A stretch of DNA of 64,000 bases, taken from Candidatus Zymogenus saltonus. Lineage in GTDB: Bacteria; Desulfobacterota; Zymogenia; Zymogenales; Zymogenaceae. Below the pieces are notes generated by a model, which saw only the letters and a list, made by a program, of their open reading frames with translations, did not search any database and had not been told where the DNA came from. Position 1 is the first letter of the stretch; each line of letters starts with the position of its first letter. The DNA is taken from positions 40,819-104,818 of the forward strand of contig JAFGIX010000086.1 of the NCBI GenBank assembly GCA_016929395.1, in the 5' to 3' direction. Made by a program: the position numbers and the translations under genes. This document shows, one piece after another, positions 54,028-64,000 of this stretch.

Positions 54028-54103
54028 GCGCCTGTAGCTCAGGGGATAGAGCAACGGACTTCTAATCCGTAGGTCGCAGGTTCGATTCCTGCCAGGCGCG
54101 CCA
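54028..54103 (+). tRNA. tRNA-Arg (anticodon UCU), CCA encoded
   Basis: Folded by hand. Acceptor gcgcctg/caggcgc, D stem gctc/gagc, anticodon stem acgga/tccgt with loop cTTCTaa, variable loop aggtc, T arm gcagg-ttcgatt-cctgc, discriminator g, then cca. 76 nt. Confidence 0.93.
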
Positions 54104-54209
54104 ATGATTTCAAGTACTTACACGTTTTCACTTTTTTACAAAAGCTCCTTGATACCAAAATGATACCAAATAAGGCGCAAAAAAAACGCTAAAAAATCAC
54201 CGTTTTTAG

Positions 54210-55361
54210 TCAAGTAGTCATGCCCTTTTTAAAGGGGATAACAACACCCGTCTCCTTCTGACCCCTAAATCCAACTAAATTGACCGTTTCATCTAAAAAT
54301 CTGGCCGTTACGTTTAAATAAACCTGTGTCGTCTTAATGTCGCTATGTCCTAAAAGTCGCCGTAACGATTCAAGATCAGCCCCGTTCATTAAAAGATGAA
54401 CGGCAAACGTCCGCCGGAGGGAATGCCAACCCCCCTTATCCTCCACTCCGGCCCGTCTTGTAACAATCCTGAAATCTCGATGAAGATTGTTTTTTCGGGG
54501 TTTTCCGTATTTGTTAGCGAAAACCCAAGGCGAAAGTTCAGATTTAGGCCGTAAACGGGAAAGCACTTCAAAGGCCGCCGCATTGAGCTTTATTCTCCTG
54601 ATTTCGTGGTCTTTAGGTTCAAAGGAAAATGTCTCTCCTCCAAAATCCATTGAATATCCCTGAACAAGAATAAATCCACCGTCAAGGTTGACATCGCCCC
54701 ATCGAAGATGCGTCAACTCGCCCAAACGCAAGCCCGTGTTTAATCCAAGGATAACCATGTCGTAAATGTGCATATTTTGAGCCGATGCAAGTATCCTTGA
54801 AATTTCCCCCTCTTCCCAAAAAGTGGGCGATTTTGAGGTTTTTGCCCTTATCAACCTCGGCCTCTCCACAACACCTTTAGGAATTATCTTCAAGCTCTCC
54901 AAAACTGTGATCATTTTCCCTATTCCTGTTAATTTTAGATCCACCGTCCGGGGGGCGAGGCCCTTGTCAAAAAGCCATTCCTTGTATTGATCGTAAATCT
55001 CCGGCGAGAGACTTTTGATTTTCTTTTCGGAAATAAACTCTTGGAAAACCTTCATCGCCTCCGCATGATATTCATACGTCCGTGGCGAATTAGAGTGAAT
55101 CTTTGACCATCTCAAAAACCTTTCGATATAATCGTTCAGGTTCGTTTCAAAAAGAACGTCAAGCCGTCCCGTCTCTTGGAGCTTTGATTTCGCTTTGTAA
55201 AATTCGTCTTTAGCCTCCGATAAAACCGTTGTCTTGACCGCCCATCTTTTACGCTTCCGGTTTTTCAAATTCATGTTTTCAGCTTCTAAATAATAACCTC
55301 CTCTGTACTCGATAAGACGGAGCTTATACCCTGAAAAAACAACCTTTTCAATAGTTGCCAT
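54210..55361 (-). CDS. int: Tyrosine recombinase (phage integrase family)
   Basis: 383 aa. Catalytic-domain blocks LNTGLRLGEL (R), HSLRRTFA (H-x-x-R), LLGHSDIKTTQVY (H..Y). Confidence 0.92.
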   Translation of the reverse strand: MATIEKVVFSGYKLRLIEYRGGYYLEAENMNLKNRKRKRWAVKTTVLSEAKDEFYKAKSKLQETGRLDVLFETNLNDYIERFLRWSKIHSNSPRTYEYHAEAMKVFQEFISEKKIKSLSPEIYDQYKEWLFDKGLAPRTVDLKLTGIGKMITVLESLKIIPKGVVERPRLIRAKTSKSPTFWEEGEISRILASAQNMHIYDMVILGLNTGLRLGELTHLRWGDVNLDGGFILVQGYSMDFGGETFSFEPKDHEIRRIKLNAAAFEVLSRLRPKSELSPWVFANKYGKPRKNNLHRDFRIVTRRAGVEDKGGWHSLRRTFAVHLLMNGADLESLRRLLGHSDIKTTQVYLNVTARFLDETVNLVGFRGQKETGVVIPFKKGMTT

Positions 55362-55568
55362 ACTTTATCACCTCCTTTCTAAAAAACCTTCTTCCTTTTA
55401 TCTACAAAACGATACTCTGTTAACCTCATTAGAAAAATGATCTGTTTACTTTTTCTGCTTTCTTATGTGAAGGCAAGGCAGACGACATATTTGGCTGTTT
55501 TCCCGAAAGAAGCTCCTCGATGGTTACATATATTCCGTTGTGCTTCATCATTTTAGTATTTCGTTCTA

Positions 55569-56375
55569 TTACTCTAATGATACATTTACTACGTGAAAAG
55601 TCATATTATAGCCCACACTAACTGCTTCAATTACTCCTATAAAAACGATATTTTGTCCTTTACTTAACGAAAAATAGTTTAAAGTTGTGTTTTCAGGAAG
55701 ATAGATTTTGGTTATGCTATTTGCATTTTTTAATTCTATCAATACTCCTGATGAAGGTAATTCCTTTTTAGGTGTTGTAAAAGTTCCAGTTAAACCTTCA
55801 GTAAAACCTTCCATAAAAGAACCGACAATAGATTTATTATACTTCTCCACGGATACTACTTCACCTATACCTATGCAATTTTTCCCAACATACATATTTG
55901 CATATTGTTCTTTTTGCACGTTAGTCAAAGAGCCCGTTTTTATTTCAGGCAAAGAGGAAATATGAACATAATCAGGGTGTTGTTTTTTCAAATCACGATA
56001 TTTAGAGTAAATACTAAAGTTGAAGTAGTAATATGCATATGCAGTAACAGCAATTAAAGAAATAATTAGAATCAAAAATAACGTTGTTTTGTTTATATCT
56101 TCAGCCTTATTTTTTGGAGTGATTGTTTTTTCTTTTTCTGTATCAATTCTTTTTTCAGGAGTAGACTCCAATTTTGAGTAATCACCCTTAATGTAGTCCC
56201 ATGTTGTCATTTTAGAATTACTTTGATTTTCTTGATCAATCGGCAAAGGCTTCGTCTTTTTATTAACTACAAAAGATGTTTTGCATTTAGGGCAAGATAC
56301 TTTTTTCCCATCATCTGGTATTAGACTATCAGCTATATTACCTTCAAATCCACAATTATTGCATTTAACTTTCAT
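55569..56375 (-). CDS. MJ0042-type zinc-ribbon / single TM / C-terminal OB-fold-like (tRNA_anti-like) membrane protein
   Basis: 268 aa. MKVKCNNCGFEGNI...VSCPKCKTSFVV zinc ribbon. TM segment TLFLILIISLIAVTAYAYYYF. The C-terminal pattern YANMYVGKNCIGIGEVVSV...SLSKGQNIVFIGVI resembles tRNA_anti-like OB domains, from recall. RBS GAGAGG. Confidence 0.6.
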   Translation of the reverse strand: MKVKCNNCGFEGNIADSLIPDDGKKVSCPKCKTSFVVNKKTKPLPIDQENQSNSKMTTWDYIKGDYSKLESTPEKRIDTEKEKTITPKNKAEDINKTTLFLILIISLIAVTAYAYYYFNFSIYSKYRDLKKQHPDYVHISSLPEIKTGSLTNVQKEQYANMYVGKNCIGIGEVVSVEKYNKSIVGSFMEGFTEGLTGTFTTPKKELPSSGVLIELKNANSITKIYLPENTTLNYFSLSKGQNIVFIGVIEAVSVGYNMTFHVVNVSLE

Positions 56376-56541
56376 AATAACCTCTCAATCGAAATCCAAA
56401 TACTATTTCGATAATTAAAGTCACAATTTAGGGAAAAAACTTTCACCGTTCCTAAATAATGAGGAAGATGAAGAATAATTATGCAAGATTAATGGGACAG
56501 ACTTATCAAACAGATTTATTTGAAGATTAATCGAATAATTC

Positions 56542-62360: not shown

Positions 62361-62910
62361 CAATAGCCCTCTCGTACAATTCGAGTTTTGCTTCCCAATC
62401 ATGCCCTAAAAGAATTTCGTAATGATATTCAAAAATTTCCCGGCTCTCCATCAAGAATCTACTCCACTCAAAGCCGAGCGATTTTGGGGTGATCTTGTCG
62501 ATCATAATGTCAAGCTTGTACAACAACCCAGCCAACTTTAAAGTTTCCGACTTTACCCATTGCTTAAACATTTTTTCCCGTTCTCGCCTTTGTCGCTTCT
62601 CTTCAATCTCCCGCCTTATTTCCGGGGCGATTGGCTTCCCGATTATATTAAGCCCCGCCTTTTGCGCTAAAAATGACAAGGCCGACTTTGTGTCCAGCTT
62701 GTAAAAGCATTCGCAAAAATCAAAAACATCTCCGCCTCGATTACACGAAAAACACCACCACCGCCCTTGGTCGGGATAGATTTTGAGGCTCGGCGTTCGA
62801 TCTTCATGGAGAAAACACTTACAAAAACCCCCCCGATTAATCGCCAGCCCCGCCTCTTCCATAAGTGAGGGGAGGTCAGTCAAGGATTTTACCAACTCGA
62901 AATTAGTCAT
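62353..62910 (-). CDS. CHC2 zinc-finger primase-like protein without TOPRIM domain
   Basis: Start at ATG 62910 (MTNFELV). CFLHEDRTPSLKIYPDQGRWWCFSCNRGGDVFDF is the DnaG-type CHC2 finger. It is only 185 aa, and the rest is helical. Confidence 0.7.
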   Translation of the reverse strand: MTNFELVKSLTDLPSLMEEAGLAINRGGFCKCFLHEDRTPSLKIYPDQGRWWCFSCNRGGDVFDFCECFYKLDTKSALSFLAQKAGLNIIGKPIAPEIRREIEEKRQRREREKMFKQWVKSETLKLAGLLYKLDIMIDKITPKSLGFEWSRFLMESREIFEYHYEILLGHDWEAKLELYERAIDG

Positions 62911-63109
62911 TTTTGGTTTCCGAAAAAAGTTCCGAGACGGATTTTCCAAGCACCGAGGCGATCCGCTCTTTTTCATCTTCCGAGGGAGTCCGCCATCCGC
63001 AAACGATTTCACTCAACCGAGATGGTATCATTTCGATCTGGGAGGCAACCCAATATTGCGTGATCCCCTGTCTTAAGATTTCTGTTTTTAAGGCAATATT
63101 TTTTGACAT
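62903..63109 (-). CDS. XRE/Cro-type HTH regulator
   Basis: 68 aa. LRQGITQYWVASQIEMIPSRLSEIVCG. The stop overlaps the primase-like start by 8 nt. Confidence 0.7.
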   Translation of the reverse strand: MSKNIALKTEILRQGITQYWVASQIEMIPSRLSEIVCGWRTPSEDEKERIASVLGKSVSELFSETKND

Positions 63110-63261
63110 TTCCTACACTCCAAAAAATTCTTATTTTCTTTAATTATATAAGATAATTTTCTTAATTCAAGAGTATTTATATGCATATATACACTTATTT
63201 AGACGCTTTTTATGGGAAATGCGAAAAAGGTGTCAAAATCTAATGGGTCAAAGGGCGGAAA

Positions 63262-63888
63262 TTAAAAGTCTTTTTTGAGTCTCGAATGGGTTTGCCCGCA
63301 CCACCGACTACAATGTTCTGTCGTTTTATTCGTGGATAAAAAGAGGTTATTGCATGATTTTCTCCCTCTAACACGAAAAGCGCATCGCCCCAAAAGATGA
63401 AAATCTCTTGATTTTAAAAAATCGCTCAATAAAAGAAATGCCTTATGTTCTTTTGTTCGGGGTTCTCTATTACCAAAACGGAGAGTTACGCCGGGGTTTA
63501 AAGTGAAATCACCAATTTTAGAGAAATATGTATGTAATTCTGGTTTTATCGATGCGTTTAAACTCTCAATTCTATAATTTATTTTTTTGACGGCATCTTT
63601 CGCCTTTGAAAACATATCGTCTCTTTTATGAATATCTATACTTACCTTGAAATAATAATCACGAATTTCGATTAATTCATAAAGAATGTCAAATATCTCT
63701 TTTTTCAATTTTATATCTTTAATATTTTTATTCAAATAATTAACAAAAAGGATTGTCGATGGATTTAAGGTTCTTTCTGTTTTATCGCTCATTATCACAA
63801 TTTTGGGTATTTCACGTTGTTTTTCCTCAAGCTCTCTTAATATCTTTTTTTCATTAATCCGTTTATCAATTTTTATAGTCTGTTTCAT
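63262..63888 (-). CDS. Hypothetical protein with C-terminal CGNR-like zinc finger
   Basis: Start at ATG 63888 after AAGGAGGG. The C-terminus LGRCAFRVRGRKSCNNLFLSTNKTTEHCSRWCGQTHSRLKK resembles the C..C..lF.d.s....rWCs..CGNR pattern, from recall. Confidence 0.45.
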   Translation of the reverse strand: MKQTIKIDKRINEKKILRELEEKQREIPKIVIMSDKTERTLNPSTILFVNYLNKNIKDIKLKKEIFDILYELIEIRDYYFKVSIDIHKRDDMFSKAKDAVKKINYRIESLNASIKPELHTYFSKIGDFTLNPGVTLRFGNREPRTKEHKAFLLLSDFLKSRDFHLLGRCAFRVRGRKSCNNLFLSTNKTTEHCSRWCGQTHSRLKKDF

Positions 63889-64000
63889 GTCCACACCCTC
63901 CTTTAAAATAATTATTCCACAATACAAGATATAGTCAAAGATAAAAAAAAGGGGGCCTGAAACGGCCCCCAAAGTGTTTAATCCAATACCGGAGGCTCTT

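What the first reader, a model, noticed from the sequence alone, without database searches (positions are those of the whole stretch)
54028..64000. tRNA-Arg-integrated element with satellite-like architecture: own int, pri-rep-ori, terS-like and terL, but no head, tail or lysis genes
- **Integration:** tRNA-Arg(UCU) is followed 106 nt later by the 3' end of a tyrosine integrase.
- **Organisation:** from there to the window end everything is AT-rich, on one strand, and joined by overlapping or abutting start/stop codons.
- **Gene order in transcription direction:** CGNR-like protein; XRE-HTH; CHC2-finger primase-like; RecA-like Rep with wHTH; iteron region; small HTH; DUF1599/MazG-like; TerS-like; TerL; two unknowns; terminator; Panacea pair; zinc-ribbon membrane protein; int.
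- **Missing genes:** in phages the portal, protease and capsid genes follow terL. Here only about 0.9 kb of unknown coding sequence follows it, and the cargo genes and int take up the rest of the interval up to the integrase.
- **Precedent and difference:** int plus pri-rep-ori plus packaging genes without structural genes is the hallmark of SaPI/PICI-type satellites. Carrying a complete terL as well as a terS-like gene is atypical for those. It points to a possibly undescribed satellite lineage in a non-model, GC-rich host.
- **Alternative:** it may be a deleted prophage remnant.
Basis: partly seen in the sequence, partly recalled or inferred. Interest (0 to 1): 0.75.

Follow-up and report, generated by a model that had tools for sequence, protein, structure and literature searches.

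The report
Small satellite-like island with own terminase
A 10.4-kb mobile island inserted in a tRNA-Arg gene of an uncultured deltaproteobacterium-like anaerobe carries its own integrase, replication module and a complete, intact DNA-packaging enzyme (TerS+TerL) but no capsid, portal, tail or lysis genes, so it most likely spreads by packaging itself into another phage's capsids, a gene combination I found in no described satellite family.

Summary
tRNA-Arg(TCT) lies at 54028-54103, and the integrase gene ends 106 nt later. Every gene from there to 64000 is on the minus strand.

A public 10,420-bp contig is 100% identical to window 54075-64000. It runs 494 nt past the window and ends in 30 nt identical to tRNA positions 54058-54087. 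This is the assembly-graph signature of a 47-bp att repeat. The element is therefore about 10.41 kb, with no room for head or tail genes beyond 64000.

TerL is full length and keeps every Walker A, Walker B and nuclease residue. The upstream ORF is a diverged TerS (hhalign 93%). No capsid, portal, protease, tail or lysis gene, or remnant of one, was detected.

The closest TerL relatives (44-47% identity) sit in similar small islands. A more distant group of 11-12 kb elements has the same Rep-TerS-TerL...Int order but carries capsid and portal genes.

Best reading: a PICI-like phage satellite, probably reduced from a capsid-forming ancestor, that kept its own terminase and uses a helper's procapsids. 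The main rival is a decaying remnant. It fits neither the PICI nor the cfPICI definition, so I class it as a new variant of a known kind. No helper has been identified.

The parts
54028..54103 (+). tRNA-Arg(TCT), the integration target
   Evidence: ARAGORN.
54058..54104 (.). attL core, running from the anticodon loop to the 3' end of the tRNA plus 1 nt. The matching attR copy lies beyond the window, at the equivalent of 64465-64511.
   Evidence: The far end of L001 is identical to 54058-54087 (30 nt) and diverges immediately upstream. L001 starts at 54075. Together these are the k=31 graph signature of a 47-bp exact repeat. 30 nt are observed and 47 bp are inferred.
54210..55361 (-). Tyrosine integrase, 383 aa
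   Evidence: PF00589 E 2e-26; phrog_1 E 2.7e-48.
55569..56375 (-). Cargo: zinc-ribbon protein with one predicted transmembrane helix, 268 aa, 30% GC
   Evidence: PF13717 E 4e-12. Hydrophobic stretch LFLILIISLIAVTAYAYYYF read from the sequence. GC.
56542..57036 (-). Cargo: 164-aa Cys-rich unknown abutting the Panacea gene. Candidate toxin partner.
   Evidence: No Pfam, PHROG or PADLOC hit. The toxin role rests on position only.
57037..57600 (-). Cargo: SocA/Panacea-domain protein (antitoxin-type), 187 aa
   Evidence: PF13274 E 1.5e-14; phrog_1281.
57662..57686 (-). Intrinsic-terminator-like hairpin closing the packaging operon. Boundary between the 45% GC core and the 30% GC cargo.
   Evidence: 11-bp stem with 7 GC pairs plus a T run. 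GC step.
57694..58107 (-). 137-aa all-helical unknown, in the same operon as TerL
   Evidence: AF2 pLDDT 77. No Foldseek hit below E 0.9 in BFVD or PDB. No family hit.
58109..58570 (-). 153-aa ORFan starting 1 nt after the TerL stop codon
   Evidence: Matches only itself in 5.8 billion proteins and in 1.84 billion representatives by exhaustive phmmer. AF2 pLDDT 52.
58572..59951 (-). Large terminase TerL, 459 aa, ATPase and nuclease domains intact
   Evidence: PF03354 E 3.7e-16; phrog_9 E 1.7e-51. Catalytic residues invariant. The family profile matches HK97 TerL 6z6d at E 8e-40.
59932..60453 (-). Small terminase-like protein, 173 aa, overlapping the TerL start by 20 nt
   Evidence: phrog_370 E 0.003. 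Homologue upstream of TerL in L139, E 1.6e-7. hhalign 93%, E 3e-7, against the TerS family of related phages.
60443..60709 (-). 88-aa protein of phage family phrog_1485, function unknown
   Evidence: phrog_1485 E 9e-18. No Pfam hit at E <= 1.
60696..60920 (-). 74-aa small protein, possibly DNA-binding
   Evidence: ORF call. Only a weak DUF3102 hit, E 0.025.
60921..61364 (.). Putative replication origin: AT-rich spacer with six 9-bp iterons TTGGTTGSS at 61294-61347, just downstream of rep
   Evidence: the repeat finder family D1 and flanking inverted repeats. The ORFs called here are probably spurious.
61365..62360 (-). Rep: AAA_25 (RepA/RecA-like) ATPase with a C-terminal winged HTH, 331 aa
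   Evidence: PF13481 E 9.5e-26; HTH_IclR E 4e-5. Homologue lies upstream of TerS-TerL in L138, E 4.6e-37.
62353..62910 (-). CHC2 zinc-finger primase-like protein, 185 aa, with no TOPRIM or catalytic domain
   Evidence: PF01807 E 1.8e-12; phrog_11992 E 1e-22.
62903..63109 (-). XRE-type HTH regulator, 68 aa
   Evidence: phrog_3 and phrog_1468, both annotated transcriptional repressor, E 7e-6 and 2e-5. Weak Pfam HTH hits.
63262..63888 (-). 208-aa unknown with a Cys/His-rich C-terminus, 31% GC
   Evidence: ORF call. No zf-CGNR hit.
63951..63970 (-). Terminator-like hairpin after the first gene of the element
   Evidence: 7 GC pairs plus T8.
63978..64000 (-). 3' end of a 97-aa gene that continues beyond the window (L001 224-517). 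It is the gene nearest attR.
   Evidence: L001 gene call and translation. No family hit.

Best explanation
The element is a roughly 10.41-kb helper-dependent integrative element, that is, a phage satellite of the PICI type. It sits in the 3' half of tRNA-Arg(TCT).

**Shown**
- It is bounded by a direct repeat of the tRNA 3' half.
- It encodes a tyrosine integrase and an XRE-type regulator.
- It has a replication module: a CHC2 zinc-finger protein, an AAA_25/wHTH initiator, and an iteron-bearing origin.
- It has a packaging operon: TerS-like, an intact HK97-type TerL, and two unknown small proteins, closed by a terminator.
- A separately acquired 30% GC cargo block (Panacea pair and zinc-ribbon membrane protein) lies between that operon and int.
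- It has no capsid, portal, protease, tail or lysis gene.

**Inferred mechanism**
1. On infection by, or induction of, a helper phage, the element excises through Int.
2. It replicates from its own origin into concatemers.
3. Its own TerS recognises a site on the element.
4. Its own TerL cuts the DNA, docks on the helper's portal, and pumps the DNA into helper-made procapsids. If packaging is headful into 30-40 kb-class heads, several genome copies would enter each head.
5. Helper tails and lysis functions complete the transfer.

**Inferred origin**
The element probably descends from capsid-forming satellite-like elements with the order Rep-TerS-TerL-MCP-portal-Int. It lost the head genes and kept the terminase.
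For: **Boundaries and size**
- L001 is 100% identical over 9,926 nt and ends in tRNA positions 54058-54087.

**Gene content**
- TerL is intact, with invariant Walker A, Walker B and nuclease residues, and the family profile aligns end to end with HK97 TerL.
- TerS assignment.
- Iterons. Operon terminator.
- No head-gene remnants in a six-frame scan of the element.

**Relatives**
- In an NJ tree the window TerL clusters with L008, L139, L138 and L002 at 44-47% identity.
- L008 and L139 have only small ORFs for 1.6 kb and 0.9 kb after TerL.
- L138 has a homologous Rep upstream of TerS-TerL.
- L002 is a 12.25-kb island bounded by a 66-bp tRNA-His repeat. It has TerS-TerL-portal-MuF but no MCP.
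- In Patescibacteria islands, a TerS-TerL-155aa-Int module with no portal is conserved across at least six genomes, keeps the catalytic residues, and sits next to defence cargo.
- Elements of 11-12 kb with the order Rep-TerS-TerL-MCP-portal-Int exist. One is also integrated at tRNA-Arg(TCT).

**Cargo position**
- Accessory genes placed after the packaging genes is typical for PICIs (PMC10085698).
Against: - There is no experimental or read-level evidence of excision, induction or encapsidation.
- No helper phage is visible in the window.
- I found no other copy of the element, so mobility is not shown.
- The two proteins after TerL are ORFans, so nothing links them to capsid hijacking.
- The low-GC cargo sits exactly where relatives carry MCP and portal. 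That is also what a recent, non-functional deletion or replacement would look like.
- The contigs of the nearest portal-less relatives are short.
- The TerS call rests on remote homology.
- HK97-type terminases use an HNH partner, and none was found here.
- A foreign TerL must fit the helper's portal. None of the satellite papers I read describes a capsid-less satellite doing this.
Confidence: 0.5

Rival explanations
1. The element is a decaying remnant of a capsid-forming satellite (cfPICI-like) or small prophage. The MCP-portal segment was replaced by AT-rich cargo. terS and terL are leftovers that have not yet accumulated lesions. The island may still integrate and replicate, but it is no longer packaged.
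For: - Relatives L166, L222, L224, L225 and L228 have the same Rep-TerS-TerL...Int order and a similar size, but carry MCP and portal where the window element has the cargo block.
- The cargo block is compositionally foreign: 30% GC and GC3 22%, against 45% and about 48% in the core. It starts right after a terminator.
- L002 looks like an intermediate state, with portal and MuF but no MCP.
- L013 carries an isolated TerL in a chromosome.
- I found the element as a single copy in public data.
Against: - Every ORF is intact and tightly packed.
- TerL keeps all catalytic residues and its full length.
- The visible 30 nt of the att repeat are exact, and the contig ends imply a 47-bp exact repeat.
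- No pseudogene fragments of head genes remain.
- The portal-less arrangement recurs in relatives diverged to 44-47% identity and in a conserved Patescibacteria module, which argues for maintenance and against one-off decay.
Confidence: 0.3
2. The element is an integrative, self-replicating island whose terminase genes serve mainly to interfere with an infecting phage's packaging. This would be a defence function alongside the Panacea toxin-antitoxin cargo, not a route for the island's own transfer.
For: - Satellite-encoded terminase subunits are discussed as phage-interference factors (PMC9618062).
- The Patescibacteria relatives of the TerS-TerL module sit next to RM, OLD, SMODS and Schlafen defence genes.
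- The Panacea protein hits PADLOC models weakly.
Against: - Interference of this kind is described for TerS or small inhibitors. An intact ATPase plus nuclease TerL is not needed for it.
- No known defence system in PADLOC matches TerL, TerS or the two ORFans.
- An own origin and an own integrase fit a transfer cycle better.
Confidence: 0.1
3. The element is an ordinary prophage with an unusual gene order, whose head, tail and lysis genes lie beyond position 64000.
For: The window ends inside the element, so this could not be excluded from the window alone.
Against: The identical contig L001 continues only 494 nt. It adds one 97-aa gene and then reaches a repeat of the tRNA 3' half. What lies beyond attR was not seen. 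A tandem second element cannot be excluded, but it would be a separate att-bounded unit.
Confidence: 0.03

Closest known systems
Phage-inducible chromosomal islands (PICIs, including SaPIs and Gram-negative PICIs)
   Same: - About 10 kb in size and integrated at an att site by its own tyrosine integrase.
- Small HTH regulator.
- Own primase-like protein, Rep and iteron origin.
- Own TerS.
- Accessory cargo placed after the packaging genes.
- No capsid, tail or lysis genes (definition in PMC10085698).
   Different: - It carries a complete TerL, which classical PICIs lack (PMC13612085).
- No AlpA, MerR or Stl-type regulator, and no capsid-morphogenesis (cpm or capsid-like) gene, was recognised.
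- int is the last gene, and all genes lie on one strand.
- The 'primase' is only a CHC2 zinc finger.
Capsid-forming PICIs (cfPICIs) and the Streptomyces satellites MulchRoom and MiniFlayer
   Same: - They encode both TerS and TerL, with a TerL of the HK97 type.
- Small integrative elements.
- Metagenomic elements L166, L222, L224, L225 and L228, with the order Rep-TerS-TerL-MCP-portal-Int, share the window element's gene order. One shares its tRNA-Arg(TCT) target.
   Different: These families are defined by their own capsid, portal, protease and head-tail adaptor/connector genes, usually with HNH as well (PMC10085698; PMC10690885). None of these is present here.
Marine VEIMEs and PICMIs (minimalist satellites packaged as concatemers)
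   Same: - No capsid genes.
- Own integrase and replication genes.
- Unit length is a fraction of a phage genome, so packaging as multimers into full-size helper heads is plausible (PMC9618062; PMC10803314 abstract).
   Different: The passages I read mention only TerS homologues or 'motor-like ATPases' in these elements. They name TerL as a function the helper presumably supplies.
L002, a 12.25-kb tRNA-His island in a Desulfarculaceae MAG (GCA_021737165.1)
   Same: - The closest relative for which both ends were seen. Its TerL is 46% identical.
- TerS homologue directly upstream of TerL.
- Bounded by a direct repeat of the tRNA 3' part (66 bp).
- int lies next to the tRNA.
- No MCP, tail or lysis genes.
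   Different: It still has portal, a MuF-like head-morphogenesis gene and HNH. Its replication protein is different, and it also carries a serine resolvase.

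Membership tests
PICI (SatelliteFinder definition, PMC10085698) | Integrase at one end; element of about 7-20 kb at an att site | tested here: met
   PF00589 integrase. About 10.41 kb between tRNA-derived repeats.
PICI (SatelliteFinder definition, PMC10085698) | Regulator homologous to AlpA, MerR or Stl | tested here: inconclusive
   Only an XRE-type 68-aa HTH was found (phrog_3 and phrog_1468, annotated repressor). There was no AlpA or MerR Pfam hit. The SatelliteFinder profiles themselves were not available.
PICI (SatelliteFinder definition, PMC10085698) | Primase-replicase module with an origin | tested here: met
   CHC2 zinc finger (PF01807), AAA_25/wHTH Rep and 9-bp iterons. 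No catalytic primase domain was found.
PICI (SatelliteFinder definition, PMC10085698) | Small terminase (or another packaging-redirection gene) | tested here: met
   TerS-like 173-aa protein: hhalign 93% against phage TerS, plus a positional homologue. The support is remote homology only.
PICI (SatelliteFinder definition, PMC10085698) | No other phage structural or packaging genes; classical PICIs lack TerL | tested here: not met
   An intact TerL is present. The absence of TerL in classical PICIs is stated in PMC13612085.
cfPICI | Large terminase gene | tested here: met
   TerL at 58572-59951.
cfPICI | Own major capsid protein, portal and prohead protease | tested here: not met
   No Pfam or PHROG hit for any ORF. 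No hit in a six-frame scan with MCP, portal and protease HMMs built from relatives.
cfPICI | Head-tail adaptor and connector genes | tested here: not met
   No PHROG head-and-packaging or connector hit other than TerL and TerS. The only unassigned ORFs in the operon are the 153-aa and 137-aa proteins, which have no sequence or fold match.
Terminase large subunit (HK97-like TerL) | N-terminal ATPase with Walker A and Walker B motifs, plus a C-terminal RNase H-like nuclease with acidic catalytic residues | tested here: met
   K63, K64, K67, D156, E157, D287, D293, D349 and D428 are invariant in 24 sequences, and G66, S68 and T69 are conserved in at least 90%. The family profile covers 6z6d residues 12-498 at E 8e-40 and also matches the G20c/P74-26 nuclease domains.
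Temperate prophage (intact or defective) | Head, tail and lysis genes, or recognisable remnants of them, inside the att-bounded unit | tested here: not met
   None within 54058 to the attR equivalent. The unit is only about 10.4 kb.
Phage satellite (functional definition) | Induction by, and encapsidation in particles of, a helper phage | not testable with these tools
   This needs virome or induction data, or experiments. No helper was identified in the window.

The most novel reading that the evidence does not exclude
There may be an unrecognised class of phage satellites, seen here in a Desulfobacterota-like host. Relatives occur in a Bacteriovoracaceae MAG and, as a conserved MTase-ParB-TerS-TerL-155aa-Int module next to defence cargo, in Patescibacteria. 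These elements would encode a complete terminase holoenzyme (TerS plus a catalytically intact TerL) but no capsid or portal. They would hijack helper procapsids by docking their own packaging motor on the helper's portal. This state lies between classical PICIs, which have TerS only, and capsid-forming PICIs.
Probability: 0.35. Interest if true: 0.75.

Novelty: new variant of a known kind. Interest (0 to 1): 0.58.

Why it matters
The satellite families covered in the papers I read redirect the helper's own TerL, using a TerS, Rpp or a cos site, or they bring a whole head module. A satellite that brings only the motor would be a third strategy. It would imply that a foreign TerL can engage a helper's portal. 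That is directly testable, and it bears on how packaging specificity and portal-terminase compatibility evolve.

The finding would also extend satellites to anaerobic deltaproteobacteria-like hosts and possibly to CPR bacteria. A 2025 preprint states that the existence of satellites in CPR bacteria is unknown.

The series seen here runs from full head module, to portal only, to terminase only. It offers a concrete path for how capsid-forming satellites and minimal satellites could interconvert. If the element is merely a remnant, the finding is routine.

Tried and rejected
1. **Function of the two ORFs after TerL: no result.**
   - The 153-aa protein matches only itself, in a word-index search of 5.8 billion proteins and in an exhaustive phmmer search of 1.84 billion representatives. 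Its AF2 model is unusable at pLDDT 52.
   - The 137-aa protein folds as a confident helical bundle, but it has no Foldseek match below E 0.9 in BFVD or PDB.
   - Neither resembles the small ORFs that follow TerL in relatives, nor the conserved 155-aa protein of the Patescibacteria islands, by hhalign or phmmer.
2. **PADLOC scan of the cargo and unknown proteins.** Only weak Panacea-type hits were found.
3. **TerS-like protein against PDB sequences.** The only hits were RecA chains (E down to 1.7e-5, with no stretch passing the threshold on its own), which I judged spurious.
4. **Rep-based search for sister elements.** It returned many AAA_25/wHTH loci, but most lack TerL and are unrelated islands or phages.
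5. **Helper prophage in the window.** There is no TerL, portal, MCP or integrase other than the element's own. The genes scanned in the 37-53.6 kb flank are housekeeping or unassigned.
6. **The idea that the whole TerL clade is portal-less.** Rejected. L002 has a portal, L014 has a prohead protease, and L013 looks like an isolated remnant.
7. **The labels 'CGNR-like' and 'DUF1599/MazG-like'.** Rejected for lack of any Pfam hit.
8. **The Logan contig break at att as evidence of excision.** Rejected. A 47-bp repeat longer than k alone produces that break.

Full report
**1. The observation**

ARAGORN finds one tRNA in the window, tRNA-Arg(TCT), at 54028-54103 on the + strand. The next gene is a 383-aa tyrosine integrase at 54210-55361 on the minus strand (PF00589 E 2e-26, phrog_1 E 2.7e-48). 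Its stop codon lies 106 nt after the tRNA end. From there to 64000 every credible ORF is on the minus strand, and the junctions abut or overlap.

Composition is lower than the host's but is not uniform:
- Host flank: 53% GC.
- Core genes of the element: 42-47% GC.
- Block 55569-57600 (zinc-ribbon protein, 164-aa unknown, Panacea protein): 30% GC, with GC3 at 22%.
- The 208-aa gene near the window end: 31% GC.

**2. Where the element ends**

The exact TerL protein is also encoded on a Logan contig of 10,420 bp (SRR13394437_839650, locus L001). Its reverse complement is identical to window 54075-64000 with 0 mismatches in 9,926 nt. It continues 494 nt beyond the window.

Its last 30 nt are identical to tRNA positions 54058-54087, and the sequence diverges immediately upstream. 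Its first base corresponds to 54075, so it begins with the last 30 nt of 54058-54104. For a k=31 de Bruijn assembly, this is exactly what a 47-bp exact direct repeat flanking the unit produces. I see 30 nt of the second copy directly and infer the other 17.

The unit is therefore about 10.41 kb from attL to attR. Only one further gene (97 aa) lies beyond the window, and there is no room for head, tail or lysis genes. The contig break itself is not evidence of excision.

**3. Gene content, in transcription order**

| Feature | Evidence |
|---|---|
| 97-aa unknown | no family hit |
| Terminator-like hairpin | 63970-63951 |
| 208-aa unknown | no zf-CGNR hit |
| XRE-type HTH, 68 aa | phrog_3 / phrog_1468 |
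| CHC2 zinc-finger protein, 185 aa | PF01807 E 1.8e-12; no catalytic primase domain |
| AAA_25 + winged-HTH Rep, 331 aa | E 9.5e-26 |
| ~440-nt AT-rich spacer | six 9-bp iterons TTGGTTGSS at 61294-61347; the ORFs called there are probably spurious |
| 74-aa small protein | only a weak DUF3102 hit |
| 88-aa phrog_1485 protein | function unknown; no DUF1599/MazG hit |
| TerS-like, 173 aa | see section 5 |
| TerL, 459 aa | see section 4 |
| 153-aa and 137-aa unknowns | see section 6 |
| Strong terminator | 57686-57662 |
| Panacea-domain protein | PF13274 E 1.5e-14 |
| 164-aa unknown | no family hit |
| Zn_ribbon_4 protein | one hydrophobic helix |
| Integrase | PF00589 |

**4. TerL is intact**

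In an alignment of 24 clade members at 27-45% identity, Walker A residues K63, K64 and K67, Walker B residues D156 and E157, and the acidic nuclease residues D287, D293, D349 and D428 are invariant. G66, S68 and T69 are conserved in at least 90% of the sequences. The window protein has all of them and spans the full family length, including the conserved C-terminal aromatic residue.

The family profile aligns over nearly its whole length with HK97 TerL (PDB 6z6d, E 8e-40) and with the nuclease domains of the G20c/P74-26 TerL.

**5. TerS**

On its own the 173-aa protein gives only phrog_370 at E 0.003. Two further results support it:
- The ORF directly upstream of TerL in L139 is its homologue (E 1.6e-7).
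- A small profile of these upstream ORFs matches the TerS family of related phages (phrog_83) with hhalign probability 93%, E 3e-7.

**6. What is missing**

No ORF hits a portal, major capsid, protease, scaffold, connector, tail or lysis family. A six-frame scan of the whole element with MCP, portal and protease HMMs built from relatives finds nothing better than E 0.3. The rest of the window has no phage head or packaging genes either.

The two ORFs after TerL remain unexplained. The 153-aa protein is an ORFan in both large protein searches. The 137-aa protein is a helical protein with no fold match.

**7. Relatives**

Only about 29 proteins in 5.8 billion belong to the close TerL clade. I examined their contexts.

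- **(a) Nearest relatives, 44-47% identity.** In an NJ tree the window TerL groups with four sequences.
  - L008 (Bacteriovoracaceae MAG): TerS-like, then TerL, then only small ORFs for 1.6 kb.
  - L139: TerS homologue, then TerL, then small ORFs for 0.9 kb.
  - L138: a Rep homologous to the window's (E 4.6e-37), then TerS-TerL, after which the contig ends.
  - L002 (Desulfarculaceae MAG): a 12.25-kb island bounded by a 66-bp repeat of tRNA-His. It carries int, TerS, TerL, portal (phrog_145), a MuF-like protein and HNH, but no MCP.
- **(b) Patescibacteria sister groups.** A conserved module MTase-ParB-TerS-TerL-155aa-XerC-like Int occurs in at least six genomes. It has no portal and is followed by type I RM, OLD-family nuclease, PIF1, SMODS and Schlafen genes.
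- **(c) Acidobacteriota chromosomal copies.** One has a prohead protease and one is isolated.
- **(d) Separate TerL clades.**
  - 30-41 kb phages with the usual TerS-TerL-portal-MCP order.
  - Circular contigs of 7.7-13 kb with a small int, TerL and, in most, an MCP.
- **(e) Found through the Rep protein.** Elements of 11-12 kb with the order Rep-TerS-TerL-MCP-portal-Int. One of them (L166) is integrated next to tRNA-Arg(TCT), with a 19-bp repeat about 10.5 kb away.

Together these form a graded series of small integrative elements: full head module, then portal only, then terminase only. The window element sits at the minimal end. Its low-GC cargo lies where the others carry MCP and portal.

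**8. Comparison with described families**

- By the SatelliteFinder definition, PICIs have int, a regulator, pri-rep, a capsid-morphogenesis gene and TerS, and typically no other phage structural genes. cfPICIs are distinguished by head-tail adaptor and connector genes plus terL, on top of capsid genes (PMC10085698).
- A 2026 survey states that classical PICIs lack TerL and portal (PMC13612085).
- The Streptomyces satellites carry TerS, TerL, portal and MCP (PMC10690885).
- In marine VEIMEs the paper reports no capsid genes and only TerS homologues or 'motor-like ATPases', and it names TerL as a function the helper presumably supplies (PMC9618062).
- I found no description of a satellite with TerS plus TerL but no capsid or portal. 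My literature search was limited to the open-access library.

The element works like a PICI. It fails the PICI definition because it has TerL, and it fails the cfPICI definition because it has no capsid, portal or connectors.

**9. Mechanism and alternatives**

*Best reading (0.5).* The element is a helper-dependent satellite. It excises by Int and replicates from its iteron origin. Its own TerS-TerL holoenzyme packages it into a helper's procapsids, probably as multimers if the helper head is of the 30-40 kb class. The steps after gene content are inference.

*Main rival (0.3).* It is a recently reduced, no longer packaged remnant of a capsid-forming element. The compositionally foreign cargo block and the single known copy favour this. 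The intact ORFs, the repeat (30 nt exact as seen, 47 bp exact as inferred), the absence of pseudogene debris, and the recurrence of portal-less TerS-TerL modules in diverged lineages argue against it.

*Minor rivals.* A terminase used mainly for interference or defence (0.1). An ordinary prophage continuing beyond the window (0.03, contradicted by L001).

**10. Host**

The flank encodes housekeeping genes: aspartate kinase, citramalate synthase, acyl-CoA ligase, a benzoyl-CoA reductase/2-hydroxyacyl-CoA dehydratase-type pair, and a sensor kinase. The four flank proteins found in the collection are singletons at 90% identity. The best named hits to the citramalate synthase are 'Deltaproteobacteria bacterium' MAGs at 74% identity, followed by Thermodesulfobacteriota, Geobacter and Nitrospirota sequences at about 62%. 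The host is therefore an uncultured deltaproteobacterium-like anaerobe.

**11. Verdict**

Function remains unproven. I rate it a new variant of a known kind, with moderate to high interest.

Noticed in passing
L003, L009-L012, L140 (for example L010 4813-10119, L011 7636-12913): Patescibacteria (Saccharibacteria, Moraniibacteriota and other CPR) genomes share a conserved module: D12 MTase, ParB, TerS, TerL, a 155-aa protein, then a XerC-like integrase. There is no portal or capsid gene. In several loci the module is followed by type I RM, OLD-family nuclease, PIF1, SMODS/AGS_C and Schlafen genes. These may be terminase-carrying satellites or defence islands of CPR bacteria.
   Followed up: partly
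L058, L071, L072, L074-L077, L079, L084 (IMG/VR contigs with terminal direct repeats): Apparently circular contigs of 7.7-13.3 kb encode a short integrase, a TerL of this superfamily, an HK97-type major head protein (confirmed or inferred by clustering in seven of the nine), and sometimes a protease or primase. L071 also has a tape-measure-like gene. They look like very small capsid-forming satellites.
   Followed up: partly
L002 4622-16935: A 12.25-kb island in a Desulfarculaceae MAG is bounded by a 66-bp direct repeat of tRNA-His. It carries int, a serine resolvase, TerS, TerL, portal, a MuF-like protein and HNH, but no recognisable major capsid protein. It is a possible intermediate between capsid-forming and capsid-less elements.
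   Followed up: partly
L166 9039-19516; also L222, L224, L225, L228: Elements of about 10.5-12 kb have the order Rep(AAA_25)-TerS-TerL-MCP-portal-Int. L166 sits next to tRNA-Arg(TCT) with a 19-bp repeat. Target tRNA, orientation and size match the window element.
   Followed up: partly
window 42500-44500: A 1.5-kb AT-rich patch (GC about 0.35, against 0.55-0.59 around it) lies between citramalate synthase and an acyl-CoA ligase. It contains a 217-aa ORF (43152-43805) with no NCBIfam or Pfam match. It may be a small foreign insertion.
   Followed up: partly
window 54150-54171, and L001 about 10215-10250 (beyond the window end): A tandem TGATACCAAA(A)T motif lies between the tRNA and the int stop codon. 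A similar ACCAAAATAGTGATAC motif lies near the other end of the element. These are candidate integrase arm-type binding sites.
   Followed up: no
window 60917-61349: Two ORFs of 70 and 78 aa are called across the iteron/ori region. The N-terminus of the 78-aa ORF (PTNPTKATNPTKATK) is simply the translated 9-bp repeats. They are probably not genes, although public gene calls list them.
   Followed up: partly
window 58109-58570: The 153-aa protein encoded directly after TerL has no detectable homologue among 1.84 billion representative proteins.
   Followed up: yes
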